A stretch of DNA of 64,000 bases from a virus: IMG/VR virus record IMGVR_UViG_3300008050_000038, positions 4,268 to 68,267 of that record; one strand, written 5' to 3'. Within the stretch, counting starts at the first letter, position 1. The number at the start of each line of letters is the position of its first letter. This document shows, in pieces, positions 1,213 through 50,174 of the stretch. A program made the position numbers and the translations under genes. A model generated the notes under the pieces. The model was not told where the DNA came from. It ran no database searches and saw only the letters and a program-made list of their open reading frames with translations.

Positions 1213-1223
1213 ATAAATAATAC

Positions 1224-27458: not shown

Positions 27459-28658
27459 ATGAAAAAGAAACGACAACATAAATCAAAATATTCAGTTACA
27501 CGAAGAAAAAGACGTCAATCAGGTGGAATGTATACTGATAATACTGTACAATCTGCTGGGCAAGGGGCTGTAGGAACAACAGCTAATGTAGTTTTTGACG
27601 AAAGCAATCCTGCTATCTTAGAAGCTAAGATGCAAAAGCTACAAGAAGCTAAGCAAAATGCTATGGATAGTAGTTCAGAAATGGCTGCTTCTGTAGAGGC
27701 ACAAGATAAGCAGGATGCACAAGCTGTAGCTTTAGCTGAACAAGAAAGTAATCAAAAATTTGAAACTGGAGAAAGTCTAGCTAAACAAGGAATGGAAGCT
27801 TATGATGAATATCAAAAAGGAGCAGCAGCACTAGCTACTAAAAAAGCAGGAAAAGTAGCAGCTGAAAAAGCAGCGAAGTCTATTGCTGGAAAAGAATTTG
27901 GAAATGTAGCTAGAAAAAAAAGTGCAGAAGAAGTTAGTAAAATGTTATCTAAAGAAGTAGTAGGTGAGGGCGCAGAACTAGCTTTAAGTAATACATCAGG
28001 AGGATCTTCTAGTTTACTAGGAGCTTTTAATGCTCCTGCACCTGCAATGCCTACTCCAGGTATAGTTCCTCCTACTCCAGCAGTTAATGCAGTTGCTAAC
28101 GCAGGAACAACAGTAGGATCAGAGATTGGTAAAACAGCAGTTAAAGAAGGAGCTAGTAAGTTTGCAGGAGTTGGAGGTGCCGGAGCAGCAGGAACGTCAG
28201 GGTTAGCTAAGTTTGCTACATCAGGAGCTGGAATAGGTACTATCGCATCTTTAGCTGGTACAGGTATTTCTATGCTATCTGATGACGGAGACCCAACTAA
28301 ATCTAATTTTGGTGAGTACTCTGGATCTATATTAAGTTCTGCAGGAACCGGAGCTTCTGTAGGGTCGTTATTAGGGCCTGTAGGTACAGCTGTTGGTGCA
28401 GGAGTTGGCGCTTTGTATGGAGCAGGTAAGCAATTTTTTGGAACTAGAAAAGCTAAAAAAGCAGCAAAAAGAGCAGAACAAGATAAAATAGCAAGAGTAA
28501 CTAAATACAATAAAGAGATTAGCAATAATCTAGCAAGTGCTAATATGCAAGCTAGAGCAGCAGAGATACAAGCAAAAACATATTCAGGATATGATCTTGG
28601 TAGAAATGTTGTTGCCAGATTTGGAGGGAATAGATTACAAATGCCTAAGTACGCATAA
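27459..28658 (+). CDS. Ejected cargo protein with glycine-zipper TM region
   Basis: 399 aa with a basic N-terminus and GxxxG-rich hydrophobic stretches (GTGASVGSLLGPVGTAVGAGVGALYG); no Cys. Confidence 0.7.
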   Translation: MKKKRQHKSKYSVTRRKRRQSGGMYTDNTVQSAGQGAVGTTANVVFDESNPAILEAKMQKLQEAKQNAMDSSSEMAASVEAQDKQDAQAVALAEQESNQKFETGESLAKQGMEAYDEYQKGAAALATKKAGKVAAEKAAKSIAGKEFGNVARKKSAEEVSKMLSKEVVGEGAELALSNTSGGSSSLLGAFNAPAPAMPTPGIVPPTPAVNAVANAGTTVGSEIGKTAVKEGASKFAGVGGAGAAGTSGLAKFATSGAGIGTIASLAGTGISMLSDDGDPTKSNFGEYSGSILSSAGTGASVGSLLGPVGTAVGAGVGALYGAGKQFFGTRKAKKAAKRAEQDKIARVTKYNKEISNNLASANMQARAAEIQAKTYSGYDLGRNVVARFGGNRLQMPKYA

Positions 28659-28669
28659 AAATATAAAAT

Positions 28670-30268: not shown

Positions 30269-30269
30269 T

Positions 30270-38700: not shown

Positions 38701-41700
38701 TTTGGTAAGTTTACTAAGGATGGTAATATATTATTATCAGACTTATTAAATACCCCGGGTATAGTATACCATGAATCTTGGCACGCAATTACTAGAAGAT
38801 TTATATCTCCAGAACAAAGGTATGCACTATATGATGAGGTAAGAGGTATGAGAGGATCTACTCAAACCTTTAAAGGAGAAACTAAAAAAATGTCTCAGCT
38901 AACAGATAAAGAAGCAGATGAATGGTTAGCGGAAGAGTTTAGAGAATATGCATTATCAAATGGAACTCATAAAGTAGGTAGTAATATACAAAAAAGTATA
39001 TTTGATAAAATACTAGCTTTATTAGATTTCTTTATTAATAATAAATCTCAAGCACAAGAGTTAATGTCTAGAATAAATTCAGGATACTTTAGTAACCCTA
39101 CTAACGAAGTAACTATATATGATTCTAAAACCGAAGCTTACTTTGAAGGCACTAAGTTAACTGCTACTATGCGTAATAACGTTATGGAAGGTATGACAGT
39201 TTTGTTATTTAGTAAAGCATTAAAACCGGGTAGCGGCGTATTTACTTTAGCAGATTTTGTTAATCCAAAGAAAACTGAGGCAAGAAATAATGCTGTTAGA
39301 AGTTTATATGGAGATACAACAACAAAAGGAACTGTATACTCACAAATACATCTTTACCTAAAAACAGCTAGAGATAACGCTACTACGCAAGAAGAAAAAG
39401 ATAATCTTACTAATACTATGAGGGCTATATATGATAACTGGACCCAATTGCAACAAGAGCATGCAAAATATTTAGAAAGATTTACTATAAACGTTACAGA
39501 AGAAGCAGAAGAATTAGAAAGAATAAGAGAACAATTTGGTAAACCACAAAACGAAATAGACCCTAGTGTATATTTACCAAAAGCAGTAAGGTTATTATTA
39601 GCTACATTACCTAAAAGTAAAAATGGAAAATTTGTACTTAACGAAAGCGGACTCCCTAAACTAGTAGAGTTTGGTAGTATAATGAATTTTATGTATAAAG
39701 AATTTGCTAATACTAATCCATTAGATTTTAGAAAAAACTTAATAAGATTAGAATCAAAAAGACCTGAAGTAAAACTTATAAAAAATAGATTAGGGCTGCA
39801 GTCTGATGATCTAACATCAAAAACTCCAGATCAAATTAGATTAATAGTTCAAGCTATGATGCAGTTTGATCAATCTAACAATACATTCTATACTCAACTT
39901 ATGACAAGAGATGGAGGTAGAAGACTTATTGATAGTAATCAAAATAGAGTAGAAGATAAGATAAAGTTAAACTGGACTAATAACTTTAAAGAAAACATAC
40001 AAAGCAACAAGTCTTTAGGTAAAGATGTAAACGGAGAGTTAATAATTAATAAAAATGCTAAAGTAAAAATAGGTAGAAAGAAAAAAACATTTGCTGAGTG
40101 GGCCCTTGAAGACAAAACACCTCAAGAAGCTTTAATAGTACTAGATCAATTAGGAATTACATTTACAAAACCTGATGTATTTTCAGAGCTGTATGCAGCA
40201 GATGAAAACATAAAACAAGCTGTTAATTATATATTACAATCTGTATATAATGAACCAGTAAGTAATATATTTAAAGGAGACATACAAGCTAACTTAAGAA
40301 CATTAGTAGAGCTAGAAGCAGCTACTAATCCTACAACGGTAGACTTACAACACAGGAGTCCTGATGGTAAAACAATACATGGTGTTAATTTAAAAACTTA
40401 TGCAGATGTATTAATTTCTGACATAACAAAAATTGGGCCTACTGGGGAGTCTATAGTAAATATTGAAAAAGTAGCAAACTTATTAAAGTATGATAACTTA
40501 GCTAATTCAGTTTATTTAAAATCTATGTTAGAAAATCCTGCTACACCTTTACAAGTTGTAATACTTCAGGGTATAGATCAAAATTTTGGTAGAGGTAAAT
40601 CATTATCTAAAGGATCTCCAGTAGATATTGGAGTAATGATGGTAAACTCTTTGTTAAGTAAAGGTATAATGCCAATACTTAGAACAGCTGATAAGAAAAC
40701 AGAGTTTGGTATTCAGTATGCTACTCCTAGTTTAAATCTAACTAAAGAAGCTATGATAGAAAGATTAAAAGGATATTTAGCAGATGAGCTTAGAGTTGCT
40801 TCTAAATTTAATAGTAAAAGAAAATCTATATTACATAGAGTATCTAAACTAAAAGACAGTGGAGGTAACTTAAGATTTTTCCAAGGACTAGTTCCATCTC
40901 TAGCTAGAAAAACATATGGTAAATATTTATCAGAAGAACAGATTGCTGAAATAGTTAATAGAGAAAGCGTAGCAAATGATCTTTCTACATTCTTAGATAA
41001 TCAAGTAGAATCTACTATGAGCACGCTAAGCACTTATAACATAGCTACAGCTGGAATAGATTCTAATCTACTAGATAGAGCAACGGTAGTATCTGTAGAT
41101 AGACCGGGTGTTACTCCTAACCAAGTAATAGGTGAACAATTTACCTATGAGTATATGACAGGAGTAAATGAGCAAGGAAAATTATTATTAGGTGACTTTG
41201 CTTTATATACAGATTTATTTAAAAGAACATCTGGTATTAGCGGTACCAAAGCTTATCCAACATCTGATCCTAATATTTTAGATTGGATGAATACTAATGT
41301 GCCAAACTTATTATCTAATAAAGAGCATACTCCTAATTTAAGAGTTTCACATAGAGCTGCAATTAAAACAGAAGCTCCTTATTTAGAGCAGTATATGGCT
41401 ACCTTAGACTTAATGGGTATGAGCACAGACTTTATGAATAACGTTAATGATGTATACTCTAACATGGAAGAATTTGATGGAGGTGGATTTATAACATTAG
41501 ATGCATATAGAAGTTTATTATATAGAACCGGTAAGTGGACTCCAGCACAAGAAGACTTCTATCAAAAATTAGTTAACAAGGAAGATTTTACAACAGAAGA
41601 TGTAGCATTATTACCTCCAATAAAACCACAATTGTTTGGACCTTTTATTGCTGAGAATTCTAGACTAATGACTTTCCATAAGTTTGCATTATTTCCACTA

Positions 41701-44700
41701 GTACCAAGACTAATGGTAGACAAAGCGTTTAATAACATACATCAAGACATGCTTAACAATGACATTGATTATATGATATTTGAATCTGCAGCTAAAGTAG
41801 GTGGTATAACAGCAGGTAGAGAGTTTGTAAACAATGATAATAGAGAAGGGTATGATCCTTTTTACGAAGAGCTGCCAACCGGGTATAGCGCATATAAACC
41901 TATGGCGCTTGACGAGCAAGGACAACCTTTAAGTTTACAAGAATTAAATTTCTCAGATTTAGGTATACAAGTAGAGATGGCACCAAAGACTAAAGAAGAA
42001 GTTACTGAAGGATCACAACTACGTTCTTTGTTGCCTGTAAACATATATGATAATGGAGAGTTATCTGAAGAGTATCAAGAGTTTGAAGATCTAGTAGATA
42101 AGTACCATGAAATTAATAGTACTTTAGTTGCAAAAGATTTTAATAGTTTAGTTAAAAAACTTAAACTAGAAAAAGATGAAAGCGGAGGGTACAAACTAAA
42201 CTCAAAAGATCTAGAAGTATTTAAAGAGGTTCTTATAGAAGAGTTTACAAAAAGAGATAATCCTTTACATACTATAGATGCTATCAAACAATTATTAGAT
42301 AGTGATACTAAATTTATAGAACAGTTATTTGAAAAGAATAAAATAGAAAGTTTATTATATTCTCTTGTAAATAATAATGTAGTAAAAAGAAAAATGCCTG
42401 GCGGACAGTTTGTATTACAAGCATCTACAGGATTTGAAAATGAAATCAAAGCTATAAAACAAAAAGATTTTGAATTAGCTGAGAGAGAGAATTTAGATTT
42501 ACATACATCACAATTAAAACCATTAAAGTTCTATAGAAAAGCAGATCCTAATAATCTTGGGTCAGAAACTTTAGCAATGCAGGTATATTTACCAAGTAGA
42601 TTTAAAGATAGAATGGGATTAACTATAGAAGATGTTAATGATCCTAATATAGATCCTGAATTATTACAACTTATAGGTTTCCGTATACCAACAGAGGGAC
42701 TTAACTCTATGGACTTTATAGAAGTTGTAGGATTTTTACCTAAATCATTTGGAGACACTGTAGTAGTGCCATCTGAAATTGTAGGTAAAGCTGGATCGGA
42801 TTATGATATTGATAAGTTAAGTATTTATTTCCCTAATTCTTATAAAGATGGAGACACTTTTAAAAGAGTTAAGTTTGATGATACTAAAACTATTAAACAA
42901 CAATCTAAAAAAGCATTACAAAATGAACTACAAACTATTATTAGAGATGTCCTTAGTCATCCTGCAAGTTTTGATCAATTAATAACTCCTGTTGGGGCTT
43001 CTACATTAAAAGACGAAGCTAAAGTAATTGCAATGAAAAGAAATCCAGGACAATTTGATGCGGAAGGTAATAAGATAAAACAACCTATAAGTCAAATTCT
43101 TAAGTTAGAAAATATGATGAATACATCATATAGAATGTTCTCTGGATTAGGAGGTATAGGTATTGTAGCTACTAGTTCTACACAACATGCTAAAGGACAA
43201 AGGCCAGGAGTTAATTGGAACTATGCAAACAATGAAGATATAGTATTTAATTTTGAAGGAGAAGACTTTGGATTATCTAGAGTATATGATGTAGCAGAAG
43301 AAGATAAAATTAGCGCTACTATTGGGCAGTATGTTACAGGATATGTTGATGTAACTAAAGAAGATTTTGTATTTGATATTAATGCTGGTATAAATATGGC
43401 TCCTATACATATGGCTTTAGTTAGATCAGGTGTACCTTTAAAATCAGTAATTAATTTTATGTCTCAACCTATCATAGATGATTATGTAAAATTAAAAGAA
43501 CTTAATCAACCAATGTATGCTACAAGAGCACTTAAATCAGACGAAAGAATAGTTGAAGATTTAATAATAAAATATGGTAAACAATCAACTACTGATGTTA
43601 AATTTAAATTAAATACACTACAAAGCATGATAGGTAAATCACCTACAGACATGTCACAAATTCAAATGAGAATGCAAGTGCAAGTTTTAAATGATTTCTT
43701 AAGGTATAAAGATTTAGCAGAAGATCTTTTATTATTAAAAGATGCTACTAGTATAGATACTTCTAATTTAAATAGTAGTATAGCTGTTAGATATGCTATA
43801 CAATCTATCAATAGACTAGAAACAGATGGAAAATTTGTAAATTTAGATGAATTATTATATAGTAATAAAGAAGGTGCCTCTACAGTGGGTGCTTATACTA
43901 CACTATTAAATGAAGTAGACGGTATGTTTGCAGAATTTAAATTAGGTGAGTATTTAGTAGATGCAAAACAGTTTATAGATACTAAAATATTTGAAGCAAC
44001 AGATAAAGATTCAAAAATGATTAAAGATGATGTAATCTATAAAATGAAAAAGTTTGAAAATTTCTTAGCTACTACTATAGTTCAAAATACATCTTATGAA
44101 TATAGTAAACTACATGAGAGAGGTAGAGATTTATTTATAGGTGAAAATAGCTTACCTAGAAGAATAAATAATTTTAAAACTATAAACGGGTATTCAAACA
44201 ACTTGCTAATTCAAGAGTTAACACCTATTCTACAAGTATATACTGAAGACAGTCAAGAAGCTACAGTAGATGGTTTAAGATTATTTAGTAAATCATTACA
44301 ACCTTATGATGTAGATTTATTAGCAGATGCTTTTATGGAATTAAAAGAAATAAATCCTGAGTTAGCTCAAGACTTAATTATATTTAGTGCATTACAATCA
44401 GGATATGATTATTCTCCACAATCTTTTTTCCAAGTTATACCAGGAACAGAAGTATTAGCTAGTCTATCTAAATATTTTAAACAAAATAAAACAGGAGATA
44501 GAACAAGCGGGCTAGTTAATAAAGCTAATATGGAAAATTTATGGACAGACTTCCATAAAAATTATTCAAATGATAAGAAAGTAGTTCCTAATGTTTATAG
44601 AAAAGAAGTAAAAAACAGTATGTCTTTATATAATAATGATAACTTTGTAACAGTTACTACAAAAATTGGAGAAGAAACAATTGGTTCTAAAACTACATCA

Positions 44701-44964
44701 ACATATGATACTCAGTTATTTAAAAACACAGGGTCAGTTGATAAAAAAGGTATGGCTGTATTTACAAAAATTAATAAGAAAGGTGTACCTTATAACTTTA
44801 TAGAAGCTACTGGGGAAAGCGCACCATCTATAGTTAATAGAAATGGCTCAGAGATTGCTCAAGATAGTGATAGAATGGAATACTCTAAACAAGAATTACC
44901 AACTAACCAATCGTCAGAAGTATCAGATGTACTTAAAGACAAAAAATGTAAAAAAGGAAATTAA
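32725..44964 (+). CDS. Virion RNA polymerase polyprotein (cargo domain + zincin protease + two-barrel RNAP)
   Basis: 4079 aa. Catalytic GSDYDIDK (DYDID at 42799-42813) preceded by GFRIPTEG; DGGGFI, ESAAKVG, KMPGGQFVL and YVDVTKE resemble phi14:2 gp66-type RNAP. A zincin motif HESWH (38770-38784) is followed by EWLAEEF. Confidence 0.93.
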   Translation: MIDKKQNGGLEDDNQDLIQPSGDQTLNSNNLINTVENNKPLEISGLAGIDILRSLQNEGYDPAGATTHTINKDDFSEYKRLIDGPFSLTDNSIDDKRAEGQGFGEKAAHGLLKLFPKTASHVLGSTVGLLDGFAEVAKDAYNNGIAASNWNKFFNNDFQRSLDDFNKAVDDKLPHYYTSQEADLSFAQSVFGKGAANFWTNDFSQGLSFVAGAVLSELATAGTARYLMPAKAAAKLKGIAAIRSTSYGQKAIQASKNLQKINKAEKIYAGLTTGRRIMTGAFYESGVEARHNYDAVVDKLNQLHAERGLGEPTAEEQAKIKDIAVKVSNGVFAGNAALVGYSNFLMFPKIFGSGLIKNKKFKNKITQGADGKYKAKHKDFGRMRNFIDNKYSFVAKRMAYEGLVEEGGQKTLDISGQYAAEDMYFNQKNPGQMQAIGEIMNHTSDGMAKAYGSVEGQKEIFLGAVLAGLGLPSFIHTNEKGEKSFKIGYGKSGGFLDFMNQYSEGRKEVEDVVDYMNNNPDALAGIKNNFDMLMGIKTADDQRDYADATNNDFAYKNADHDAFFAFVHSRLQGGYFGDVLDSLEDMRGMDLDSFEAMFNYEEQTQDMSKTEREAFLSERRNKVIDTHIERANKIKEIHESLDNTRISPAAKKTIAQALSSTADLDSREQKLISELEETGGFALTAITDKEENDRFSNDSIFTKLKNFTMKKLGLKGKDVMENSEVGKEIKRELGIKEFTKPGHPYLVWQRMVQKLQSLKKQQDAYEQDDNVEGYVEVGDQIEKLEDEIAELTSAIDNQTAPDISSEEQQILDEYKKRDPAGYELNKDEMIKKLQDLRRIRAKRHQMLNLVQQLLDPIAANDKIQQMEEVVQDILTEEERKSLPPEEQRLARKYKGKIVEFEYTDKNGNTRTHRVLVKDSENIVKLPNEETFRLLQRKNDLLKKGALTEDEKAELELLEEELKKPEHVTQYDNSLSIGVFKKATNVKILSEEDLVLKQLQSVTQVLQDQLAEKLSEATKAIEESKQELIDITLQIKDIKVAIRNAKTNKKGELRVNLNSIGRGTQNKVETAYQLLQNLKAKEQAYKALLVKFNEDVATLNDNALRMQVIHTTITNPETVAGILGKSSSKQEVFEAVTELLGLTSMEEFYKNLGDQGFFDTNALTALAGQKNKDGGYDVDNQLLQEILGLASSNISKDYLDLMNTDLEHFRSELILLTKHREDVERMLSRMVTPDGQSVMFPPDGLGPKDLEYLSRELRMVDQDIKTLEGIVSMMEAETEQNLLDATNSELIQERLKAIQTQKEINDVFIEYENFLMSVLSEPAEEAELEEGETLPEQLDIESQRDNSPSLESVGWTKTAGNHGASLAKWEQKYKQLVSQGDKLTEAEQMELQHVESQLRFFRKSYEIFDFSKKTGARLKIVTRYNISDDLKDKIVFYDIAKAKKSGRFDDPSNYQYSDNLTENPNRDETLENIKLLLVDATGQPILLDGGLVYTDMNSSDMVNSQGRFKGQPSDLDKDGNLREDLGLDVAQQDFIAERNKILSDNQERFFFITKKSRGVAIKTEEGLQPGLGRLEVKKGKGNSGVRPAKEEDLKDMPLTIALPNAGQKGADQQVNLFGFKVTSRFAYFGTPTRGHMGTNNLIPAQISRLSENQVNNIYNLSRYFAENDKGGINIGGKGFTTILKEQIMYGDRSKQRERQEFSIYMKDDAIFFGDQGKSISMEQLKDPNKFSDIHEEYKGFLRTLYFNILSPALATDQKARVEAGKKGRKTGTYVAPDYTKFNEVIVNDDLSTEVKEWDNYTHYLLSDVGRDVADVPVKVDLPLATSPKVDQRYTPQYKNVYLEHSSQSFTNEGIENDKNDSNRTVDRTEDPVVDTTKEEDIYEERVVVNTKTGERKTIIVKVASDEEKAIIEGEESKAAQEETPDTLEDSPFSQSSMDDEFDEPFFLSNMEQPSNNIDLNQELEWFNANMPKDSNGNFLVGIDMIKGLIDGKAFGKFTKDGNILLSDLLNTPGIVYHESWHAITRRFISPEQRYALYDEVRGMRGSTQTFKGETKKMSQLTDKEADEWLAEEFREYALSNGTHKVGSNIQKSIFDKILALLDFFINNKSQAQELMSRINSGYFSNPTNEVTIYDSKTEAYFEGTKLTATMRNNVMEGMTVLLFSKALKPGSGVFTLADFVNPKKTEARNNAVRSLYGDTTTKGTVYSQIHLYLKTARDNATTQEEKDNLTNTMRAIYDNWTQLQQEHAKYLERFTINVTEEAEELERIREQFGKPQNEIDPSVYLPKAVRLLLATLPKSKNGKFVLNESGLPKLVEFGSIMNFMYKEFANTNPLDFRKNLIRLESKRPEVKLIKNRLGLQSDDLTSKTPDQIRLIVQAMMQFDQSNNTFYTQLMTRDGGRRLIDSNQNRVEDKIKLNWTNNFKENIQSNKSLGKDVNGELIINKNAKVKIGRKKKTFAEWALEDKTPQEALIVLDQLGITFTKPDVFSELYAADENIKQAVNYILQSVYNEPVSNIFKGDIQANLRTLVELEAATNPTTVDLQHRSPDGKTIHGVNLKTYADVLISDITKIGPTGESIVNIEKVANLLKYDNLANSVYLKSMLENPATPLQVVILQGIDQNFGRGKSLSKGSPVDIGVMMVNSLLSKGIMPILRTADKKTEFGIQYATPSLNLTKEAMIERLKGYLADELRVASKFNSKRKSILHRVSKLKDSGGNLRFFQGLVPSLARKTYGKYLSEEQIAEIVNRESVANDLSTFLDNQVESTMSTLSTYNIATAGIDSNLLDRATVVSVDRPGVTPNQVIGEQFTYEYMTGVNEQGKLLLGDFALYTDLFKRTSGISGTKAYPTSDPNILDWMNTNVPNLLSNKEHTPNLRVSHRAAIKTEAPYLEQYMATLDLMGMSTDFMNNVNDVYSNMEEFDGGGFITLDAYRSLLYRTGKWTPAQEDFYQKLVNKEDFTTEDVALLPPIKPQLFGPFIAENSRLMTFHKFALFPLVPRLMVDKAFNNIHQDMLNNDIDYMIFESAAKVGGITAGREFVNNDNREGYDPFYEELPTGYSAYKPMALDEQGQPLSLQELNFSDLGIQVEMAPKTKEEVTEGSQLRSLLPVNIYDNGELSEEYQEFEDLVDKYHEINSTLVAKDFNSLVKKLKLEKDESGGYKLNSKDLEVFKEVLIEEFTKRDNPLHTIDAIKQLLDSDTKFIEQLFEKNKIESLLYSLVNNNVVKRKMPGGQFVLQASTGFENEIKAIKQKDFELAERENLDLHTSQLKPLKFYRKADPNNLGSETLAMQVYLPSRFKDRMGLTIEDVNDPNIDPELLQLIGFRIPTEGLNSMDFIEVVGFLPKSFGDTVVVPSEIVGKAGSDYDIDKLSIYFPNSYKDGDTFKRVKFDDTKTIKQQSKKALQNELQTIIRDVLSHPASFDQLITPVGASTLKDEAKVIAMKRNPGQFDAEGNKIKQPISQILKLENMMNTSYRMFSGLGGIGIVATSSTQHAKGQRPGVNWNYANNEDIVFNFEGEDFGLSRVYDVAEEDKISATIGQYVTGYVDVTKEDFVFDINAGINMAPIHMALVRSGVPLKSVINFMSQPIIDDYVKLKELNQPMYATRALKSDERIVEDLIIKYGKQSTTDVKFKLNTLQSMIGKSPTDMSQIQMRMQVQVLNDFLRYKDLAEDLLLLKDATSIDTSNLNSSIAVRYAIQSINRLETDGKFVNLDELLYSNKEGASTVGAYTTLLNEVDGMFAEFKLGEYLVDAKQFIDTKIFEATDKDSKMIKDDVIYKMKKFENFLATTIVQNTSYEYSKLHERGRDLFIGENSLPRRINNFKTINGYSNNLLIQELTPILQVYTEDSQEATVDGLRLFSKSLQPYDVDLLADAFMELKEINPELAQDLIIFSALQSGYDYSPQSFFQVIPGTEVLASLSKYFKQNKTGDRTSGLVNKANMENLWTDFHKNYSNDKKVVPNVYRKEVKNSMSLYNNDNFVTVTTKIGEETIGSKTTSTYDTQLFKNTGSVDKKGMAVFTKINKKGVPYNFIEATGESAPSIVNRNGSEIAQDSDRMEYSKQELPTNQSSEVSDVLKDKKCKKGN

Positions 44965-47900
44965 TGGCTTGTAATATAATAAGAAATAAAGATGGTAAAA
45001 TAGTTAAAGTTACTGCCGATAACGGCAAAGACTCAAAATTATTTAAAGATATAGTTAACTTAGGTTACGATAAAGAAACAGCTTTAAAGAAGTGGGCCGT
45101 TGCATATACACCTACATTTAAAAACTGGTTTGGTCAAGGTAATGTAGATGTTAATGGAGAACCAAAGATTGTTATGGTTAATCAAGATCCAATGTTTATA
45201 GCTGACGACGCCACTACTAAACATGCTACAGAAAATTTAGGTAGTTTTAAATCTAAAAAAGATCCATCACCTTTATTAAATGAAATAAAACGAAGATTTA
45301 AATTAGTTAAAACTGATGGTACTATAAGAAATATACCTTACATGGAAGATGTTTATGGTAGAGCAGAAAAAATCGAAAAGATGTATCCTGGTGTAAGAGC
45401 CTTTGTACTACAAGATATGGGAGGAGACTATATTAGTTTAGACATTAGTACTAGTTTAGATGTAGATAATGTTTATCATCAAGCACAATCTAATAGTCTT
45501 GCTGAGAGCAGCCAAGAGGTAGATCTAGCTATGAAGCAATTCCTTAGAACTTTAGGAGTTAGATTACAAGAGGTGCCTGAAATAAGAGATAGAAATGGTA
45601 ATGTTTTATCTGTTACAGCTAAAGCGGACATGCTTAATAAAGTTGTAGAATACTCTAAAGGAAAAATGGGTATAGATACATTACCTGAAGAAGCGGCTCA
45701 CTTTATGGTTGAAATATTACAGGCATCAAATAGCCCATTATTTACATCTATGATGAATAATATAGAAAAATTTGGTGTATATCAAGAAGTAATGGAAAGT
45801 GATACTTATCAAAAGCTTTATAAAGGAGATGAAAATATGCTTAAAAAAGAGGCTATAGGTAAGCTTATAGCAAAGCATGTAATAAAAAACATTAAAGGAA
45901 ATGAAGCCCCGGTAAATATTAGGAGAGTAGACAGCTGGTGGTCAAGAGTTAAAGATTTTATAGCAAGTATATTTGGGAAATCTAATGCATATGTAGATGC
46001 GGCACAAATGATGGTAAACAATAGTGTTGAAGAATATTTAGATGTAGAAAAAGCAATTAAAGGAGGGCTTTCTGGAGAGTATTACCAAGACGAAAGTAAA
46101 TTTAAATCATATCGTAAAAAAGCATTTGGGGCAGTAGAAAATGCTGATGTAAGCGGCCAAGATGTTCTTGATGCAATAACTCCTGAACAAATGAAAAAGA
46201 AAAAATGGTCAGGAGACACTTTAAAAAAGCTTGAAGATGAAAATAAATATTGGGAAATTGAAAGAATGTCTTTAGAAAAAGCTGGATTAAAAGAAACATG
46301 GTTTGTAGAAGATGGAAATGAAATAGAAAGATATATAGGTAAAAAAAATAGCCCTTATCCTGGCGTAGTAATAAAAGGAAGAGTATCTGATGCAGTTAAA
46401 AAACATTTTTGGAAAATAAACAGAGGAAAGATTACAGATCTTAGTGGTAAAGAAGCTAAACTTCGTTTAGATAATAATGAAATGAGAAAAGTAACAGGTA
46501 CTATGGGGCACACTGTTATGGAAGAGCTTGTACAATTGTACGTTAATAAAAAGGGAAATAGAAAAACTATTTTAAATAAATCTTTATTTACTGAAGCTCA
46601 ATTTCAAGTTTTAGAGCAAGGTGTAAAAGATCTTATAGCTCAGATTAAAAAGGTTCAAAAAGAAGTTGATCCTGAAGGTAAGGTTACTATAAGAACAGAG
46701 CAAATGGTTACTAATAGAGATCAAACCGTGGGAGGGTCTATAGATCTTATTGCTATATTTAGTGATAATTCTGCAGCTATATATGATTATAAATTTGTAT
46801 CGCCGTCTATTCAAGCAGGATATGTAGATAGAACTTCTAAAAGAATTGTAGAAGATCCTTTTAATGTTAAAATGGCAACATATGACATGCAAATGTCTCA
46901 GTATAAAAAACAATTGCTACAAAACTATGGGATTACTCAAATAAGACAGTCTAGAATTGTTCCTATACATATTAGATATAAGACAGAAAAAGGAGGGAAA
47001 CTAACAAATCAAATCACCGTATTACAGATGGGAACTAAATATAGTGAGTTCTTACAACAGATACCGGTGGCAGGAGAGTTAACTAGGTTTAATGATATAA
47101 ATAAATTAATTAGAAAATTACTAGTAAGAAAAGAAGCTGTTGATAGACAGTTACAAACTAAAAAATATAAAGCAGGGGCTTCTTTTGAGTCTCTTAAAGC
47201 TCAGCAAGCAAAAATATCTAAGCAATTAAGAGTATTACAAATAGATCAGGATTTAGCATACGTTATAAAATCTCTTGGAGAAGATATAAAAATAATTAAT
47301 GATAGATTAAGTACTAATAATGAAGTATTAAAATCAGGTGAATTAAATCCAAATTATTTAACTAATAGTGATTTAAATGATTTATTAAGTGATCTAATGT
47401 TTTACCAGTCATTAGTTAATGTACATGACTATGTATCAAATATGACTGAGGCAAAACAAAAAGAATATAAAATACTTAGAGATAGGCTTGCAGGGTTCTT
47501 AGGGCCAGCTATTACCGCGGTACAAGGTAAGATGTTAGAAAGAACTAGTGATAAAGCTCAAGAAAGAGGAGTACAAGGTATAGAAAGTTTTAATCTAGAT
47601 GTTAGTTGGGCTACACGTAACTTTGTTAATTTATCTAAACAATCAAATCCATATTTGAGAAATCTTTGGGAAATGATGGATAAATTAAATTTCCAAAAAA
47701 GAAAAATAGTAAAAGCTAAAGCGGAAGAAATACAATTTGCACAAGATGCTTTTGTAAGAGATCGTGGTATTAAAGCTTTTGATGATTTATTAAATGAAGA
47801 TGGTACTTTTAAATCTAAGTACAGTAAAGAATACTACACAAGAAGGAACGCAGCGCTTAAAGGAAGCAATTCTAAGTGGTTTTCAAAAGAAGAAGGCAAT

Positions 47901-50174
47901 GTAGTTATAGATGAAGAATACTATAATAAGAAATATAAAGAATTTAGGGCAGGTAAACTGAAAGCTCTAAAATCTAGGTTGGGGGATAACCAACAAGCAA
48001 TAAACAGAGAAATACGTAAATGGGAAATAGCGCACGATGTTAAAAACCACAGGAAAACGGCATCTATAAATAAAGGAGGACAATACTTTTTAAGGCCAGC
48101 TGAAAAATGGATTAGTGAGGATTATCTTAAAATTCAAAATGATACTGAAGCTAAAGCTTTTTATGATTTATATATGAAAACTATACAACAAATAGAAGAC
48201 ATGTATGGGGAAAGGTTGGGCCCTAATTTTACAGCTGAAATACATAAAGGTTTTATTGAGTCAGCATTTGTTAATGGAAGTATGAGTGAAGCTCTAGACA
48301 GTACTATCGAAAACTTTCAAATTAGAGAGCACGATAGAACGTACGGTATAAGAGATGAAAACACCAATAGATTAATAAAGCAAATACCTAAATTATATAT
48401 ACACCAACTAAGAGATTCAAACGGCAATGTAGACTCTTCTTTAAAAAGTAGAGATTTAGGTAAAGGTTTATTATTGTTGTTTGATGCTGCTTTAGATTAC
48501 CAGTTAAAGAGTGAAATACTACCTGAAGTACAAATGATGGAAGCTATTTTAACTACTAATGCAATTGAAGTGCAAAGTACAGATACTTATGGTAATATTT
48601 TAGAAAATGCTAGTAACATGGATACAGAGAAACCTAAAGAATTGTACAATACTTATCAAAAATTTGTAGATGCTTATATTTACGGTACAGATTTAAATGC
48701 TAAAGACTTAAAATTAGGATCTAAAATAAGTGGAGCTAAAACACTTTTAGGATTAAAGAACTTACATTCGCTTGCGCAGCTGGGACTCAAAACTCCTGTT
48801 GCAATTGGGGCGTTTAGCGCGGGTATGATTGGCTTAGAGTATGAAGCTTCTAAAGGATCTTTTATAACTAGAAAAAACTTAAGAACAGCTCAATTAGCTC
48901 TTATGAAAGCTGACCCTAAAATGAGGGCGTTAGCAGAGTATTTAGATATATACCAAAGAAATGATGTACAAAATAGATCAGATAAATTATCTGCAGATTA
49001 TAGAACTCGACATTTTACTAATGATAAATGGTTTGCATTTTTATCTACAGCTGATAAAGGAATTGATGCAATAACATTATATGCAGCTGCATTAAACTAT
49101 GGTGTTGATGAAAATGGAATGGTTCAAAGATTAGATCGATTACCTAAAGATTCTAAAAATCTTCTAGAATTAATAGAGATTGAACAGAATCCATTGTGGG
49201 AAGGAACAACAACTAATGTATCAAATAAAGCAGTAGATAGATATAAAGTTAAAATTAAAGGTTTAAACGAAGATGGAGAATTAAAAATGAGAAATATCTC
49301 AAGAGAGATTGCTTTTAAAGTGAAGGGAAGTATGTCTGAAGAAGATAAAGTTATTTATAATCAAAACATGTTCTTAAAACTAATGATGCATTATAAGTCT
49401 TGGTTACCTGGTGTAGCAATGGCTAGGTTTGGTAAACAAAGATATAATAATATACTAGAGAGTTTTGATGAAGGTACTTGGATAAGTGCATTTAGTAATG
49501 TAGGCCCAGAAGTAGCTTTAGATACAGAAGTGCATGCACTGGACTATTTACAAAGTGCTTTTATGGATATGATGCGCGCAATAGGAGATATTATAACGTT
49601 TGGGTACTTTGATATGACTAAAGTAAAAGAAGATTTAGCTAGAGCTAGATTTGATATTTGGCTTTCTAACAACGCATCTAACCCGCAATTTGCAGATAAA
49701 ATAAGAAATGAAGCTGCTAGAGAAGAGTTATTTCAAGAATACCTAGATATGAAAAGAGGAAATATAAAAGCATTCTTAATGGAGTTTAGAGCTGTATTAG
49801 CTTTATTTTTATTATTAATGACTATAGATGATGATGAAGATAAAGATGGTAAAGTAAGAATGAGGCAAACCTTTCTAGGAAGAAAACTATATAATACTTT
49901 AAATAGAATATATAGAGAAACAGCAGTATTTGTTAATCCAACAGAATTTTTAGAATCAGGAAGAGCTACAGGTATACCAATGTTAAGTTTATTAAATAAC
50001 GGTGTAAAAGTAATAGGTAATACTTTTGAAACAATGGGGCAAGACATATCAGGAGTAGAAGATAAAAGAGATAGAACTCCAAGATTTTATTATACTTTTA
50101 AACTATTTCCTGGAATAAACGCTTTAAGTAAGGGAATAGAAATGTTCCCACAACAAAAATACGAAAAGTATTAA
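44964..50174 (+). CDS. Large ejected virion protein with degenerate zincin and PD-(D/E)xK nuclease-like domains
   Basis: 1736 aa; LPEEAAHF...KEAIGK (zincin-like, first His missing) and GTMGH...EQMV...GSIDLIAIFSDNSAAIYDYK...Y..QMSQY (RecB/Cas4-like PD-(D/E)xK). It follows the RNAP gene as in crAss-like phages. Confidence 0.8.
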   Translation: MACNIIRNKDGKIVKVTADNGKDSKLFKDIVNLGYDKETALKKWAVAYTPTFKNWFGQGNVDVNGEPKIVMVNQDPMFIADDATTKHATENLGSFKSKKDPSPLLNEIKRRFKLVKTDGTIRNIPYMEDVYGRAEKIEKMYPGVRAFVLQDMGGDYISLDISTSLDVDNVYHQAQSNSLAESSQEVDLAMKQFLRTLGVRLQEVPEIRDRNGNVLSVTAKADMLNKVVEYSKGKMGIDTLPEEAAHFMVEILQASNSPLFTSMMNNIEKFGVYQEVMESDTYQKLYKGDENMLKKEAIGKLIAKHVIKNIKGNEAPVNIRRVDSWWSRVKDFIASIFGKSNAYVDAAQMMVNNSVEEYLDVEKAIKGGLSGEYYQDESKFKSYRKKAFGAVENADVSGQDVLDAITPEQMKKKKWSGDTLKKLEDENKYWEIERMSLEKAGLKETWFVEDGNEIERYIGKKNSPYPGVVIKGRVSDAVKKHFWKINRGKITDLSGKEAKLRLDNNEMRKVTGTMGHTVMEELVQLYVNKKGNRKTILNKSLFTEAQFQVLEQGVKDLIAQIKKVQKEVDPEGKVTIRTEQMVTNRDQTVGGSIDLIAIFSDNSAAIYDYKFVSPSIQAGYVDRTSKRIVEDPFNVKMATYDMQMSQYKKQLLQNYGITQIRQSRIVPIHIRYKTEKGGKLTNQITVLQMGTKYSEFLQQIPVAGELTRFNDINKLIRKLLVRKEAVDRQLQTKKYKAGASFESLKAQQAKISKQLRVLQIDQDLAYVIKSLGEDIKIINDRLSTNNEVLKSGELNPNYLTNSDLNDLLSDLMFYQSLVNVHDYVSNMTEAKQKEYKILRDRLAGFLGPAITAVQGKMLERTSDKAQERGVQGIESFNLDVSWATRNFVNLSKQSNPYLRNLWEMMDKLNFQKRKIVKAKAEEIQFAQDAFVRDRGIKAFDDLLNEDGTFKSKYSKEYYTRRNAALKGSNSKWFSKEEGNVVIDEEYYNKKYKEFRAGKLKALKSRLGDNQQAINREIRKWEIAHDVKNHRKTASINKGGQYFLRPAEKWISEDYLKIQNDTEAKAFYDLYMKTIQQIEDMYGERLGPNFTAEIHKGFIESAFVNGSMSEALDSTIENFQIREHDRTYGIRDENTNRLIKQIPKLYIHQLRDSNGNVDSSLKSRDLGKGLLLLFDAALDYQLKSEILPEVQMMEAILTTNAIEVQSTDTYGNILENASNMDTEKPKELYNTYQKFVDAYIYGTDLNAKDLKLGSKISGAKTLLGLKNLHSLAQLGLKTPVAIGAFSAGMIGLEYEASKGSFITRKNLRTAQLALMKADPKMRALAEYLDIYQRNDVQNRSDKLSADYRTRHFTNDKWFAFLSTADKGIDAITLYAAALNYGVDENGMVQRLDRLPKDSKNLLELIEIEQNPLWEGTTTNVSNKAVDRYKVKIKGLNEDGELKMRNISREIAFKVKGSMSEEDKVIYNQNMFLKLMMHYKSWLPGVAMARFGKQRYNNILESFDEGTWISAFSNVGPEVALDTEVHALDYLQSAFMDMMRAIGDIITFGYFDMTKVKEDLARARFDIWLSNNASNPQFADKIRNEAAREELFQEYLDMKRGNIKAFLMEFRAVLALFLLLMTIDDDEDKDGKVRMRQTFLGRKLYNTLNRIYRETAVFVNPTEFLESGRATGIPMLSLLNNGVKVIGNTFETMGQDISGVEDKRDRTPRFYYTFKLFPGINALSKGIEMFPQQKYEKY

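What the first reader, a model, noticed from the sequence alone, without database searches (positions are those of the whole stretch)
44947..44972. Only two cysteines in ~7,500 aa of ejected cargo, facing each other at the RNAP / next-protein junction
Seen in sequence (manual scan): the 399-, 532- and 814-aa cargo proteins have no Cys. The 4079-aa RNAP polyprotein has one, 5 residues from its C-terminus (DKKCKKGN*, TGT 44947-44949). The 1736-aa protein has one, at residue 3 (MAC, TGT 44970-44972). The two genes are coupled by TAATG. Established: the N4 virion RNAP is Cys-free, which is attributed to its passage through the oxidising periplasm. Inference: two lone terminal Cys kept in an otherwise Cys-purged set suggest a head-to-tail disulfide (or shared metal site). 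This would chain the unfolded proteins so they thread through the tail in order and are released by reduction in the cytoplasm, a redox-cleavable daisy-chain ejection mechanism.
Basis: partly seen in the sequence, partly recalled or inferred. Interest (0 to 1): 0.85.

Follow-up and report, generated by a model that had tools for sequence, protein, structure and literature searches.

The report
Cysteine clasp linking crassvirus cargo proteins
The only two cysteines in this phage's giant injected proteins sit at the tail of one protein and the head of the next, a pairing kept across crAss-like phages that most likely forms a disulfide joining the proteins end to end.

Summary
Five consecutive ORFs (7,560 aa) hold two Cys: residue 4075 of 4079 and residue 3 of 1736.

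It is not chance.
- 118 of 120 homologues of the RNAP giant have a Cys in their last 12 residues. 115 of 120 homologues of the next protein have one in their first 8, and 0 of 120 at their C-end.
- At 71 junctions between consecutive giant ORFs (80 IMG/VR loci plus the window), 70 carry both Cys, 0 carry one, and 1 carries none. That one is a lone in-frame stop.
- Extra gene splits bring extra pairs.
- 9 of 9 ORFs that fuse the two parts have no Cys in the linker.
- An apparent split in cr108_1 is a group I intron and has no pair.
- In Intestiviridae the gene order is reversed and the Cys follow the order, not the family.
- phi14:2 reads gp67 (last residue), gp66 (3 and -2), gp65 (3).

Cyanophage A4 has the same signature, and its cryo-EM structure shows that disulfide.

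Best reading: a head-to-tail interchain disulfide. The bond itself and its role in ejection remain untested in crassviruses.

The parts
44947..44949 (+). TGT codon for Cys4075, the only Cys of the 4079-aa protein, 5 residues from its C-terminus
   Evidence: It is nearly invariant in alignment A2 and the only invariant column in A4. A Cys lies in the last 12 residues of 118 of 120 homologues.
44970..44972 (+). TGT codon for Cys3, the only Cys of the 1736-aa protein
   Evidence: It is invariant in A1 and the only invariant column in A3. A Cys lies in the first 8 residues of 115 of 120 homologues.
44962..44966 (+). TAATG stop/start overlap of the two genes
   Evidence: The overlap is not needed for the Cys pair. 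Gaps at paired junctions range from -4 to more than 50 nt, and crAss001 gp47 lies on the opposite strand to gp50 and gp49.
32725..44964 (+). 4079-aa giant virion RNA polymerase polyprotein: a gp47-like N-terminal half fused to a gp50/gp66-like catalytic half
   Evidence: tblastn and BLASTP hits to crAss001 gp47 and gp50 and to phi14:2 gp67 and gp66. PDB 6VR4, 'DNA-dependent RNA polymerase', matches at E 1.5e-31 over residues 2880-3383. phrog_32390 matches residues 91-468.
42799..42813 (+). DFDID catalytic motif of the RNAP (residues 3359-3363)
   Evidence: D3359, D3361, I3362 and D3363 are invariant in A2. The role of the DFDxD motif is taken from the phi14:2 preprint abstract.
44845..44961 (+). 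Predicted flexible C-terminal tail (residues about 4041-4079) that carries Cys4075
   Evidence: In the AF2 model of the last 430 residues, model positions 392-430 have pLDDT below 50, while positions 290-380 score about 87-95.
44964..50174 (+). 1736-aa protein homologous to crAss001 gp49, with an EExxH (zincin-like variant) motif and conserved D594/D608/K610
   Evidence: BLAST to crAss001 gp49 residues 5-301. A1 invariant columns E242, E243, H246, D594, D608, K610. PDDEXK_1 was found in homologue P0071. No Pfam or PHROG hit for the window protein itself. In the AF2 model the N-terminal domain (residues 1-160) has pLDDT 76-93 apart from a 91-100 dip to 60, and Cys3 lies just before strand 4-7.
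27459..32714 (+). Three Cys-free ORFs (399, 532 and 814 aa) between the muzzle-like protein and the RNAP giant. They are presumed smaller cargo or ejection proteins and are not part of the Cys-linked chain.
   Evidence: 0 Cys. They sit where crAss001 gp45/gp46 sit. Hydrophobic runs at 399-aa residues 252-306 and 814-aa residues 390-438. No significant homology found, so the role is inferred.
21088..27455 (+). Tail ring protein 1 (21088-21972) and a 1827-aa virion structural protein (21972-27455), which place the cargo block in a crassvirus-type tail module
   Evidence: Pfam CrAss_Ring_1, E 1e-55. phrog_15100 'virion structural protein', E 1.9e-40.

Best explanation
The two lone cysteines are the two halves of a conserved head-to-tail interchain disulfide. 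Cys4075 sits on a roughly 40-residue flexible C-terminal tail of the 4079-aa virion RNA polymerase polyprotein. Cys3 sits at the very start of the folded N-terminal domain of the 1736-aa gp49-like protein. Joined, they would make one unbranched chain of about 5,800 residues inside the virion.

Across crAss-like phages the same clasp stands at every point where this cargo polyprotein is cut into separate genes, and it is missing wherever the parts are one polypeptide. The disulfide therefore acts as a stand-in for the peptide bond.

Shown here:
- conservation of both Cys;
- strict co-occurrence of the two Cys at junctions;
- gain of pairs with gene splits and absence of pairs in fusions;
- dependence on gene order rather than on protein family;
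- Cys-free chain ends;
- a solved structure of a phage with no detectable sequence similarity in which the same sequence signature is a real disulfide.

Inferred:
- The thiols are reduced during assembly in the cytoplasm and oxidise in the finished or released virion.
- The covalent, nearly linear link (overhangs of at most about 11 and 6 residues) keeps the partly unfolded proteins connected while they are packaged and threaded through the tail.
- All other Cys are purged to prevent wrong pairings in the oxidising periplasm.
- Cytoplasmic thiol reductants cut the link after entry and free the RNAP from its partner.
For: 1. Conservation.
- 118 of 120 RNAP-giant homologues have a Cys at -1 to -8.
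- 115 of 120 next-protein homologues have a Cys at residues 2-6.
- 95 and 110 of them respectively have no internal Cys.
- C3 and C4075 are the only invariant columns in A3 and A4.

2. Pairing.
- Of 71 junctions, 70 have both Cys, 0 have one, and 1 has none.
- The junctions fall into 32 clusters at 50% identity and 17 at 35%.
- The chain ends are free: 0 of 120 next proteins have a C-terminal Cys, and only 4 of 96 long (at least 3700 aa) giants have an N-terminal Cys.

3. Splits gain pairs.
- 15 of 19 short (2200-2800 aa) RNAP proteins have an N-terminal Cys as well. This state changes at least 5 times on the RNAP-core tree, with 0 of 500 shuffles as low.
- Three-link chains occur in L024, L036, L072 and L080.
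- crAss001: gp47 has Cys at -3; gp50 at 5 and -9; gp49 at 5.
- phi14:2: gp67 at -1; gp66 at 3 and -2; gp65 at 3. These are the only Cys of those three virion proteins.

4. Fusions lose pairs. 9 of 9 ORFs spanning both parts have no Cys in the linker, and 4 of them have no Cys at all.

5. Pseudo-splits have no pair.
- The cr108_1 22606|22607 gap is a group I intron (RF00028, 80 bits, E 1.3e-20).
- The L079 gap is one in-frame TAA in a gene that is continuous in its 94%-identical relative L081.

6. The Cys follow gene order, not family. In CrAssphage ZA and crAss002 the zincin protein comes first and carries the C-terminal Cys (-2). The RNAP giant comes next and carries 'MSC'.

7. It is not a DNA-level signal.
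- crAss001 and IAS gp47 homologues are on the other strand.
- Junctions with an ORF inserted between the two genes keep the pair (L019, L030, L036).
- Both TGT (124) and TGC (16) are used.

8. Generality. The pair is present in Steigviridae, in four subfamilies of Suoliviridae, in Intestiviridae and in Flavobacterium phage FpV4.

9. Precedent.
- Anabaena phage A-4L gp27 (1717 aa) has one Cys at -3, and the adjacent gp26 (1114 aa) has one Cys at 5.
- The cryo-EM paper PMC12002296 (passages read) reports a disulfide between exactly these residues in the pre-ejectosome.

10. crAss001 virions do hold disulfides, in the tail and in the gp57 dimer (PMC10172136, passages).

11. Geometry. Cys4075 lies on a tail with pLDDT below 50. 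Cys3 lies at the edge of a confident domain.

12. Co-fold of the two ends: weak support only. The score was 0.35 against a best control of 0.00 (counts are in the full report).
Against: - No direct chemistry. Nothing here shows an S-S bond in any crassvirus virion.
- Virions assemble in a reducing cytoplasm, and gut crassviruses live without oxygen, so when and whether the bond forms is open.
- One lineage breaks the rule. In L074 (same ending as P0232) the fused ORF ends without a Cys, yet a downstream ORF starts 'MAC'.
- Lone terminal Cys without an obvious partner occur in smaller proteins of the same block: CrAssphage ZA 795 aa at -2, crAss002 557 aa at -8, FpV4 598 aa at 5.
- The Intestiviridae 'MSC' starts are my re-reading of annotated starts that lie 21 and 32 codons further upstream.
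- Gut phages keep 4-9 internal Cys in these proteins, so the purge is not absolute.
- The co-fold gave only weak support.
- The loci are related by descent, so the 70 junctions are far fewer independent events.
Confidence: 0.75

Rival explanations
1. The terminal Cys are not partners of each other. Each bonds to something else, for example a portal, capsid or tail protein, or each forms homodimers (C-end to C-end, N-end to N-end).
For: - Each protein has a free Cys that could pair with any thiol.
- crAss001 virion proteins use many disulfides.
- Lone terminal Cys without a neighbouring partner exist in ZA, crAss002 and FpV4 smaller proteins and in L074.
Against: - There were 0 of 71 junctions with only one of the two Cys.
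- Chain ends carry none: 0 of 120 C-ends of the last protein, and 4 of 96 N-ends of long first proteins.
- A split always brings two Cys, one on each new end, and a fusion removes both.
- Homodimer or anchor models predict no such parity.
- In A4 the equivalent Cys bond to each other.
Confidence: 0.08
2. The two thiols bridge a shared metal ion (a clasp like a zinc hook) rather than forming a disulfide.
For: - Two Cys brought together from two chains could coordinate a metal.
- One clade has a His five residues after the N-terminal Cys (the MATCPNKSHP type).
Against: - There is only one Cys per end.
- No other conserved ligand exists: C3 and C4075 are the only invariant columns of A3 and A4.
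- Flanking residues vary freely.
- A non-covalent metal clasp would not survive unfolding.
- The A4 structure shows a disulfide.
Confidence: 0.05
3. The Cys are free thiols with another role, such as lipid or other modification, a catalytic nucleophile, a redox sensor or a processing signal. Their co-occurrence would then reflect a shared requirement at protein ends.
For: - T7 gp14, an ejected protein, also has a single Cys at residue 2 with no C-terminal partner in gp15 or gp16.
- N-terminal Cys are used for acylation in other systems (general knowledge).
Against: - The N-terminal Cys occurs on at least three proteins with no detectable sequence similarity to one another (gp50-like, gp49-like and the Intestiviridae giant) and always opposite a C-terminal Cys.
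- There is no signal peptide or lipobox, because the Cys is at residues 2-6.
- A C-terminal Cys at -1 to -8 has no place in those models.
- Fused forms do without any Cys.
Confidence: 0.05
4. The pattern is chance, inheritance from one ancestor, or a nucleotide-level feature of gene junctions (a coupling or initiation signal) with no role for the protein.
For: - The window's two codons lie within 26 nt of a TAATG overlap.
- Many loci are related by descent.
Against: - The pair is kept at 21-25% identity while nearly every other column changes.
- Terminal Cys density is 453 times the internal density.
- There are at least 5 state changes on the tree.
- Partners can lie on opposite strands or be separated by inserted ORFs.
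- Both Cys codons are used.
- Spacing from the ends varies.
Confidence: 0.01

Closest known systems
Cyanopodophage A4 (Anabaena phage A-4L) ejection proteins gp27 and gp26, with a disulfide Cys1715-Cys5 in the pre-ejectosome (PMC12002296; PDB 9K2V and 9K3A as named in the paper)
   Same: - The upstream large ejection protein has a single Cys 3 residues from its C-terminus.
- The adjacent downstream protein has a single Cys at residue 5.
- Neighbouring ejection proteins are Cys-free or Cys-poor.
- The bond was seen by cryo-EM, and the authors speak of a possible 'chain reaction' of ejection (passages only).
   Different: - There is no significant sequence similarity to the window's proteins (best E 0.077).
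- A4 has no virion RNAP and only one link.
- The passages I read do not present the bond as a general rule or connect it with gene splitting and fusion. I did not see the SI.
Crassvirus virion RNAP module: phi14:2 gp67/gp66/gp65 and crAss001 gp47/gp50/gp49
   Same: - The proteins are homologous, with the DFDxD catalytic site and the same gene block.
- All three are in virions, and the RNAP enters the cell.
- They carry the same terminal Cys.
   Different: - In the window gp47-like and gp50-like are one 4079-aa protein, so there is one link instead of two.
- Neither the atlas paper (0 occurrences of 'cysteine'; 'disulfide' only for the tail and gp57) nor the phi14:2 preprint (0 occurrences of 'cysteine' or 'disulfide') mentions these Cys.
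- The preprint assumes that fused polyproteins are 'likely cleaved'.
Cys-free ejected proteins of N4-like phages (Schitoviridae gp50/71, gp51/72, gp52/73) and T7 gp15/gp16
   Same: - Cysteine is strongly suppressed in proteins that cross the periplasm (PMC11445570 passages; T7 gp15 and gp16 have 0 Cys in 2,065 aa).
- They are giant virion RNAPs thought to pass the tail unfolded or as beads on a string (PMC13434306 passages).
   Different: - N4 vRNAP is one polypeptide with a T7-like RNAP fold and needs no link.
- It has no terminal Cys pair.
- Crassviruses keep exactly the Cys needed at chain junctions.
Two-chain translocated proteins held by one interchain disulfide that is reduced after membrane passage (the AB-toxin principle; recalled from general knowledge, no call)
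   Same: An unfolded polypeptide crosses a membrane while tied to its partner by a single disulfide and is set free by cytosolic reduction.
   Different: - Those chains arise by proteolytic nicking of one precursor, and the Cys are internal.
- Here the chains are separate gene products joined end to end.
- This is an analogy of mechanism only, not of family.

Membership tests
Crassvirales virion RNAP cargo module | Giant protein with the DFDxD two-barrel RNAP catalytic motif, homologous to phi14:2 gp66 | tested here: met
   D3359, D3361 and D3363 are invariant. PDB 6VR4 matches at E 1.5e-31. tblastn hits phi14:2 g066 and crAss001 gp50.
Crassvirales virion RNAP cargo module | Adjacent RNAP-associated protein of the gp49/gp65 type with a zincin-like motif | tested here: inconclusive
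   Homology to crAss001 gp49 residues 5-301 at E 9.6e-17. However, the motif is EExxH, not HExxH, in the window and in 111 of 120 homologues; phi14:2 gp65 has HExxH. There is no Pfam hit and no fold match.
Crassvirales virion RNAP cargo module | Crassvirus-type tail module next to the cargo genes | tested here: met
   CrAss_Ring_1 at E 1e-55 directly upstream. The gene order matches crAss001 gp43-gp50.
Crassvirales virion RNAP cargo module | The proteins are packaged in virions and delivered into the host | not testable with these tools
   Known for phi14:2 and crAss001 only. The window is an uncultured IMG/VR record, 79% complete.
Head-to-tail disulfide-linked ejection proteins (A4 gp27-gp26 type) | Lone Cys within a few residues of the C-terminus of the upstream protein | tested here: met
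   Cys4075 of 4079 is the only Cys. A4 gp27 has Cys1715 of 1717.
Head-to-tail disulfide-linked ejection proteins (A4 gp27-gp26 type) | Lone Cys within the first few residues of the downstream protein, encoded by the adjacent gene | tested here: met
   Cys3 of 1736 is the only Cys, and the genes overlap by one base. A4 gp26 has Cys5.
Head-to-tail disulfide-linked ejection proteins (A4 gp27-gp26 type) | An S-S bond between the two Cys in the virion | not testable with these tools
   Seen by cryo-EM for A4 only. For the window only a weak co-fold signal exists (score 0.35 against control 0.00).
Head-to-tail disulfide-linked ejection proteins (A4 gp27-gp26 type) | Sequence homology to A4 gp26/gp27 | tested here: not met
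   The best BLASTP E-value is 0.077. The window works like the A4 pair but is not a member of the same protein family.
Cys-purged ejected phage proteins (N4/Schitoviridae type) | Near-absence of Cys over thousands of residues | tested here: met
   2 Cys in 7,560 aa. Internal frequency is 0.0137% in homologues against 1.30% elsewhere in the same loci.
Cys-purged ejected phage proteins (N4/Schitoviridae type) | Single-chain vRNAP of the T7-like fold | tested here: not met
   The only PDB relative is phi14:2 gp66, which the N4 paper describes as fundamentally distinct from N4 vRNAP.
Split intein / protein trans-splicing | An intein N-fragment starting with Cys at the end of the first protein, and an intein C-fragment followed by Cys at the start of the second | tested here: not met
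   Only 4 residues follow Cys4075 and only 2 precede Cys3. Across homologues the overhangs are at most 8 and 6 residues, leaving no room for intein fragments. The sizes of intein fragments are recalled, not from a call.
Bacterial lipoprotein (lipobox) | A signal peptide with a hydrophobic core before the modified Cys | tested here: not met
   The Cys is at residues 2-6 directly after the start Met, so there is no room for a signal peptide. The definition of a lipobox is recalled.

The most novel reading that the evidence does not exclude
An unbroken covalent thread is a hard requirement for delivering crassvirus cargo. On this reading the RNAP-associated proteins leave the capsid as one linear polymer. 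Evolution may cut, reorder or invade these genes freely, provided each cut is re-sealed by a terminal Cys-Cys clasp. Reduction of those clasps by host cytoplasmic thiols would be the timed switch that releases and activates the polymerase. The same rule (one lone C-terminal Cys facing one lone N-terminal Cys) would then be a general, sequence-readable mark of ejection order in podophages. It has been seen once by structure, in cyanophage A4.
Probability: 0.35. Interest if true: 0.85.

Novelty: new variant of a known kind. Interest (0 to 1): 0.78.

Why it matters
Crassviruses are the most abundant phages of the human gut. How their three giant RNAP-associated proteins are stored, ordered and pushed through the tail is stated to be open, both in the crAss001 atlas and in the 2026 N4 paper.

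The Cys rule gives a concrete prediction that is cheap to test in two cultured systems, phi14:2 and crAss001: a species of about 690 kDa in non-reduced crAss001 virions that falls into three bands on reduction.

It also does four other things:
- It explains why these proteins are Cys-purged yet keep exactly one or two Cys.
- It predicts the physical order of the chain from sequence alone (gp47/67, then gp50/66, then gp49/65; in Intestiviridae the zincin protein first).
- It offers a check on annotation. True protein junctions carry the pair; introns, in-frame stops and wrong start codons do not.
- It links crassviruses to a bond seen once in a cyanophage with no detectable sequence similarity, which points to a wider principle of phage protein ejection.

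Tried and rejected
- DNA-level search of the junction region against the phage collection found no match. A single-protein scan of viral contigs found no confirmed relative. The profile scan then worked.
- Pfam and PHROGs give nothing for the 1736-, 399- and 532-aa proteins, and only unnamed families of unknown function for the 4079- and 814-aa ones.
- Foldseek of the N-terminal 450-aa model against the PDB had no match at E <= 0.001. A profile of A1 against PDB sequences had no match.
- hhalign of A1 against crAss002 gp32 was not significant (E 0.074). It lined up only the zincin motif, so I rely on the depositors' annotation for that protein.
- BLAST of the 399-, 532- and 814-aa ORFs against crAss001 gp45/gp46, phi14:2 g068-g070 and others gave nothing significant.
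- Rfam on the L079 gap found nothing. The gap turned out to be a single in-frame stop.
- Split intein, lipobox, translational-coupling signal and chance were considered and rejected (see Membership tests and Rival explanations).
- An intrachain disulfide closing one protein into a ring is possible only for middle proteins with two Cys. It cannot apply to the window, where each protein has one.
- The published Nature version of the phi14:2 paper is not held, so I read the preprint.
- Accession NC_024711 is not in the collection, so I used CrAssphage ZA instead.
- Searches for a prior description of the terminal Cys found none. One search found the A4 precedent.
- Supplementary files and extended-data tables of PMC10172136 and PMC12002296 were not seen and could hold relevant detail, for example the crAss001 disulfide list and the reduced versus non-reduced MS quantities.

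Full report
**1. The observation**

The window is 64 kb of a 68,267-nt IMG/VR virus record, estimated 79% complete, with 32% G+C. On the + strand lie five consecutive ORFs:
- 27459-28658 (399 aa)
- 28670-30268 (532 aa)
- 30270-32714 (814 aa)
- 32725-44964 (4079 aa)
- 44964-50174 (1736 aa)

A computed count gives 0, 0, 0, 1 and 1 Cys. These are Cys4075 (TGT 44947-44949...DKKCKKGN*) and Cys3 (TGT 44970-44972, MAC...). The stop and start overlap as TAATG. Other ORFs of the window are Cys-rich, for example 63 Cys in 1481 aa and 41 in 798 aa.

**2. What the proteins are**

- *The 4079-aa protein.* It carries the crassvirus virion RNA polymerase.
  - Residues about 2880-3383 match PDB 6VR4, the phi14:2 gp66 'DNA-dependent RNA polymerase' (E 1.5e-31).
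  - The DFDID motif (3359-3363) is invariant in an alignment of 31 homologues.
  - Its N-terminal part matches crAss001 gp47 and phi14:2 gp67.
  - It is therefore a natural fusion of the gp47-like and gp50/gp66-like proteins.
- *The 1736-aa protein.*
  - It is homologous to crAss001 gp49.
  - It has a conserved EExxH motif at the position where phi14:2 gp65 has HExxH.
  - It has conserved D594/D608/K610; a homologue hits PDDEXK_1.
- *Upstream genes.* These are a CrAss_Ring_1 tail ring protein (E 1e-55) and a 1827-aa virion structural protein.
- *The literature.*
  - In crAss001, gp45, gp46, gp47, gp49 and gp50 were found in virions and called cargo (PMC10172136, passages).
  - In phi14:2 the RNAP is delivered into the cell, and gp65, gp66 and gp67 are virion proteins (bioRxiv 10.1101/2020.03.07.982082, passages).
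- *The three small ORFs.* That the 399-, 532- and 814-aa ORFs are cargo is inferred from position and composition only.

**3. Conservation**

- *Next-protein family.* A search with the 1736-aa protein listed 120 homologues (95% down to about 22% identity).
  - 115 have a Cys in the first 8 residues: position 3 in 71, 4 in 36, 5 in 6, 2 in 1 and 6 in 1.
  - None has a Cys in the last 12 residues.
  - 110 have no internal Cys.
  - Of the five exceptions, one (P0085) has MAC after an in-frame Met at residue 10. The other four have unrelated N-termini and may be truncated or start elsewhere.
- *RNAP-giant family.* A search with residues 3300-4079 of the giant listed 120 homologues.
  - 118 have a Cys in the last 12 residues: -1 in 45, -2 in 29, -3 in 11, -4 in 14, -5 in 12, -6 in 6 and -8 in 1.
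  - 95 have no internal Cys.
  - The exceptions are P0174 and P0232.
- *Aligned end segments.* In 27 N-terminal and 27 C-terminal segments, C3 and C4075 are the only invariant columns.

**4. Pairing in genomic context**

A profile scan of IMG/VR returned 80 loci. I called ORFs mechanically (table 11, first ATG) and labelled giant + strand ORFs by BLAST to the two window proteins.
- Among 71 junctions between consecutive chain ORFs (80 loci plus the window), 70 have both a Cys in the last 12 residues upstream and a Cys in the first 8 downstream. None has only one, and 1 has none.
- The junctions fall into 56, 47, 32 and 17 clusters at 90, 70, 50 and 35% identity.
- Gaps at paired junctions range from -4 to more than 50 nt. 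Both Cys codons are used: TGT 124 and TGC 16.
- Over 152 chain proteins (353,574 aa) there are 196 Cys. Of these, 148 lie in the 2,388 terminal-window positions. Internal frequency is 0.0137%, against 1.30% in the other ORFs of the same loci.
- Some junctions were not in the tally because the downstream ORF had no BLAST label.
  - L080 1036|1656 and L078 2519|1612 both have the pair.
  - L074 4229<|...|899> does not. The fused ORF ends without a Cys, a 400-aa ORF with Cys42 and Cys45 follows, and then an ORF starting MAC. This is the one real exception I found. P0232 has the same ending.

**5. Splits gain pairs**

- *Short RNAP proteins.* Those of 2200-2800 aa begin near residue 1950-2050 of the window's giant. 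They carry an N-terminal Cys in 15 of 19 cases, against 4 of 96 for proteins of at least 3700 aa. The four short ones without it are a fragment (P0137) and three with different starts.
- *The tree.* On a FastTree of the RNAP core (120 rows) the N-terminal-Cys state needs at least 5 changes, with 0 of 500 label shuffles as low. The split clades are nested among fused ones. It is a quick tree with some long branches, so I take it only as evidence for several independent events.
- *Three-link chains*:
  - L024: 768< Cys -1 | 2470 aa Cys 4 and -2 | 1632 aa Cys 3
  - L036: 3291< Cys -1 | 700 aa Cys 4 and -2 | 1762 aa Cys 3
  - L072: 1660< Cys -4 | 1501 aa Cys 5 and -2 | 1325 aa Cys 4
  - L080: 2534< Cys -4 | 1036 aa Cys 3 and -3 | 1656 aa Cys 3
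- *Shifted cuts.* In L027, L028 and L052 the cut lies after the EExxH domain, and the pair has moved with it.
- *Cultured phages.*
  - crAss001: gp47 (2341 aa) has a single Cys at -3; gp50 (2412 aa) has Cys 5, 1334 and -9; gp49 (1349 aa) has a single Cys 5.
  - phi14:2: gp67 (1797 aa) has a single Cys, its last residue; gp66 (2180 aa) has exactly two, 3 and -2; gp65 (1421 aa) has a single Cys 3.

**6. Fusions and pseudo-splits lack pairs**

- Nine ORFs span both the RNAP part and the next-protein part: L025, L027, L028, L031, L052, L064, L074, L078 and L083. None has a Cys in the linker. L025, L031, L064 and L083 have no Cys at all in 3,564-4,878 aa.
- In cr108_1 the annotated pair 22606|22607 has no terminal Cys at its junction. 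The 290-nt gap is a group I intron (RF00028, 80 bits, E 1.3e-20), so this is one protein.
- The single unpaired junction of the tally (L079) is one in-frame TAA in a gene that is continuous in its 94%-identical relative L081.

**7. The Cys follow order, not family, and are not a DNA signal**

- In CrAssphage ZA and crAss002 (Intestiviridae) the zincin-containing protein comes first and carries the C-terminal Cys (-2). The RNAP giant follows. An in-frame Met, 21 and 32 codons inside the annotated start, reads MSC. The start reassignment is my inference.
- In crAss001 and IAS virus the gp47 homologue is encoded on the opposite strand yet keeps its C-terminal Cys.
- Junctions with an extra ORF inserted between the partners keep the pair: L019 (200 aa), L030 (217 aa) and L036 (261 aa).
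- The pair is also present in Suoliviridae cr118_1, cr60_1, cr6_1 and cr1_1, two of which have recoded stops, and in Flavobacterium phage FpV4.

**8. Structure predictions**

- AF2 on the last 430 residues (27-row alignment; mean pLDDT 70.9) folds up to about residue 4040. The last roughly 39 residues, which include Cys4075, stay below pLDDT 50.
- AF2 on the first 450 residues of the next protein (mean pLDDT 72.4) gives a confident domain over residues 1-160. Cys3 lies directly before strand 4-7.
- A co-fold of the two ends gave weak support.
  - The median score was 0.35 and the best of 3 controls was 0.00.
  - The tool's calibration says the mark was reached by 58 of 80 solved complexes and 2 of 110 mismatched pairs. 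At 0.60 or under it was reached by only 7 of those 80 and by both mismatches.
  - The runs agree in at least 15% of their contacts, and the partner's pLDDT is at least 56.
  - I give this little weight.

**9. Comparison with what is known**

- *Cysteine suppression.* It is described for N4-like phages and attributed to passage through the periplasm (PMC11445570, passages). T7 gp15 and gp16 also have none.
- *Disulfides in virions.* crAss001 virions contain structural disulfides in the tail and in gp57.
- *The closest precedent.* One search found it.
  - I fetched Anabaena phage A-4L. gp27 (1717 aa) has one Cys, at -3. The adjacent downstream gp26 (1114 aa) has one Cys, at 5. gp29 has none.
  - This is the same sequence signature, in proteins with no significant similarity to the window's.
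- *Prior description.* I found none for the crassvirus terminal Cys or for their link to gene fission and fusion.
  - Searches.
  - The atlas paper has 0 occurrences of 'cysteine'.
  - The phi14:2 preprint has 0 occurrences of 'cysteine' or 'disulfide'.
  - The 2026 N4 paper has 0 occurrences of either word and calls the crassvirus ejection proteins unresolved.
  - Supplements and extended-data tables were not seen.

**10. Verdict**

- *Observation.* It is confirmed and generalises to a strong rule.
- *Most likely mechanism.* A head-to-tail interchain disulfide replaces the peptide bond wherever the RNAP cargo polyprotein is split, giving one nearly linear covalent chain. My confidence is about 0.75 for the bond and lower for its role.
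- *Function.* The argument is inference. Non-covalent contacts are lost when proteins unfold to pass the tail. Only a covalent link at the chain ends keeps an unbranched thread. The purge of all other Cys prevents wrong pairs. The cytoplasm would cut the link.
- *Rivals.* Other partners or homodimers, a metal clasp, other thiol chemistry, and a DNA-level signal or chance are each much less likely given the parity of the pairs, the free chain ends and the fusion/fission pattern.
- *Novelty.* This is a new variant of a kind seen once by structure.
- *Interest.* It is high, because the prediction is directly testable in phi14:2 and crAss001.

Noticed in passing
L003:11085-11403 (cr108_1, MT774385.1): A group I intron (RF00028, 80 bits, E 1.3e-20) interrupts the giant RNAP gene. 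The depositors annotated the two exons as separate proteins, the second starting with Leu.
   Followed up: partly
L079:6546-6548: A single in-frame TAA splits the RNAP giant in this contig. The 94%-identical L081 is continuous there. It could be a nonsense mutation, a sequencing error or a read-through stop.
   Followed up: partly
L019:5914-6516, L030:9018-9671, L036:11971-12756, L075:8740-9483, L080:7618-8121: Small ORFs (167-261 aa) sit exactly at junctions between giant cargo genes. Those of L019 and L030 are Cys-free; that of L036 has 6 Cys. They may be mobile genes that caused the splits.
   Followed up: no
L074:12732-16633: This is the one lineage that breaks the rule. The fused RNAP and EExxH ORF ends without a Cys. 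A 400-aa ORF with Cys42 and Cys45 follows, then an ORF starting MAC. P0232 has the same ending.
   Followed up: no
L089:3414-5801, L089:2556-3353, L090:3259-4932, L091:4051-5847: Smaller proteins of the cargo block also carry a lone terminal Cys with no facing partner: CrAssphage ZA 795 aa at -2 and 265 aa at -6, crAss002 557 aa at -8, FpV4 598 aa at 5. Those of ZA (265 aa) and crAss002 have a Gly/Ala-rich hydrophobic N-terminus.
   Followed up: no
window 45687-45701 (residues 242-246 of the 1736-aa protein): The zincin-like motif reads EExxH instead of HExxH in the window and in 111 of 120 homologues, and also in crAss001 gp49. phi14:2 gp65, crAss002 gp32 and the CrAssphage ZA protein keep HExxH. 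The domain may not be an active metalloprotease in most of the family.
   Followed up: partly
P0008 residues 63-207 (homologue of the 1736-aa protein): Some homologues carry an ART-PolyVal ADP-ribosyltransferase domain inserted just after the N-terminal Cys (E 8.6e-13). Others carry PDDEXK_1, and some RNAP giants carry DUF7831 or helicase domains. The cargo chain appears to be a platform for extra effector domains.
   Followed up: no
window 9715-12111 and 706-5669: These ORFs are very Cys-rich: 41 Cys in 798 aa, with pairs recurring about every 26 residues from residue 459 to 622; 63 Cys in 1481 aa; and 14 Cys in 168 aa. They have no family hits and are probably external fibre proteins rich in disulfides. 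They form the opposite extreme to the cargo block.
   Followed up: no
window 13657-16233, 16707-17648, 19451-20452, 59488-60276 (-), 60304-60813 (-): Further Cys-free ORFs lie outside the cargo block (858, 313, 333, 262 and 169 aa). The 858-aa ORF matches a PHROG labelled tail fiber protein.
   Followed up: no
L095:1729-2319 (T7 gene 14): T7 gp14, an ejected internal protein, has a single Cys at residue 2, while gp15 and gp16 have none. There is no C-terminal partner in the block.
   Followed up: no
L086 and L087 (cr60_1, cr6_1): The annotated giant cargo genes contain 55-57 in-frame stops under table 11, consistent with stop-codon recoding in late genes. The terminal Cys pair is still present.
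   Followed up: no
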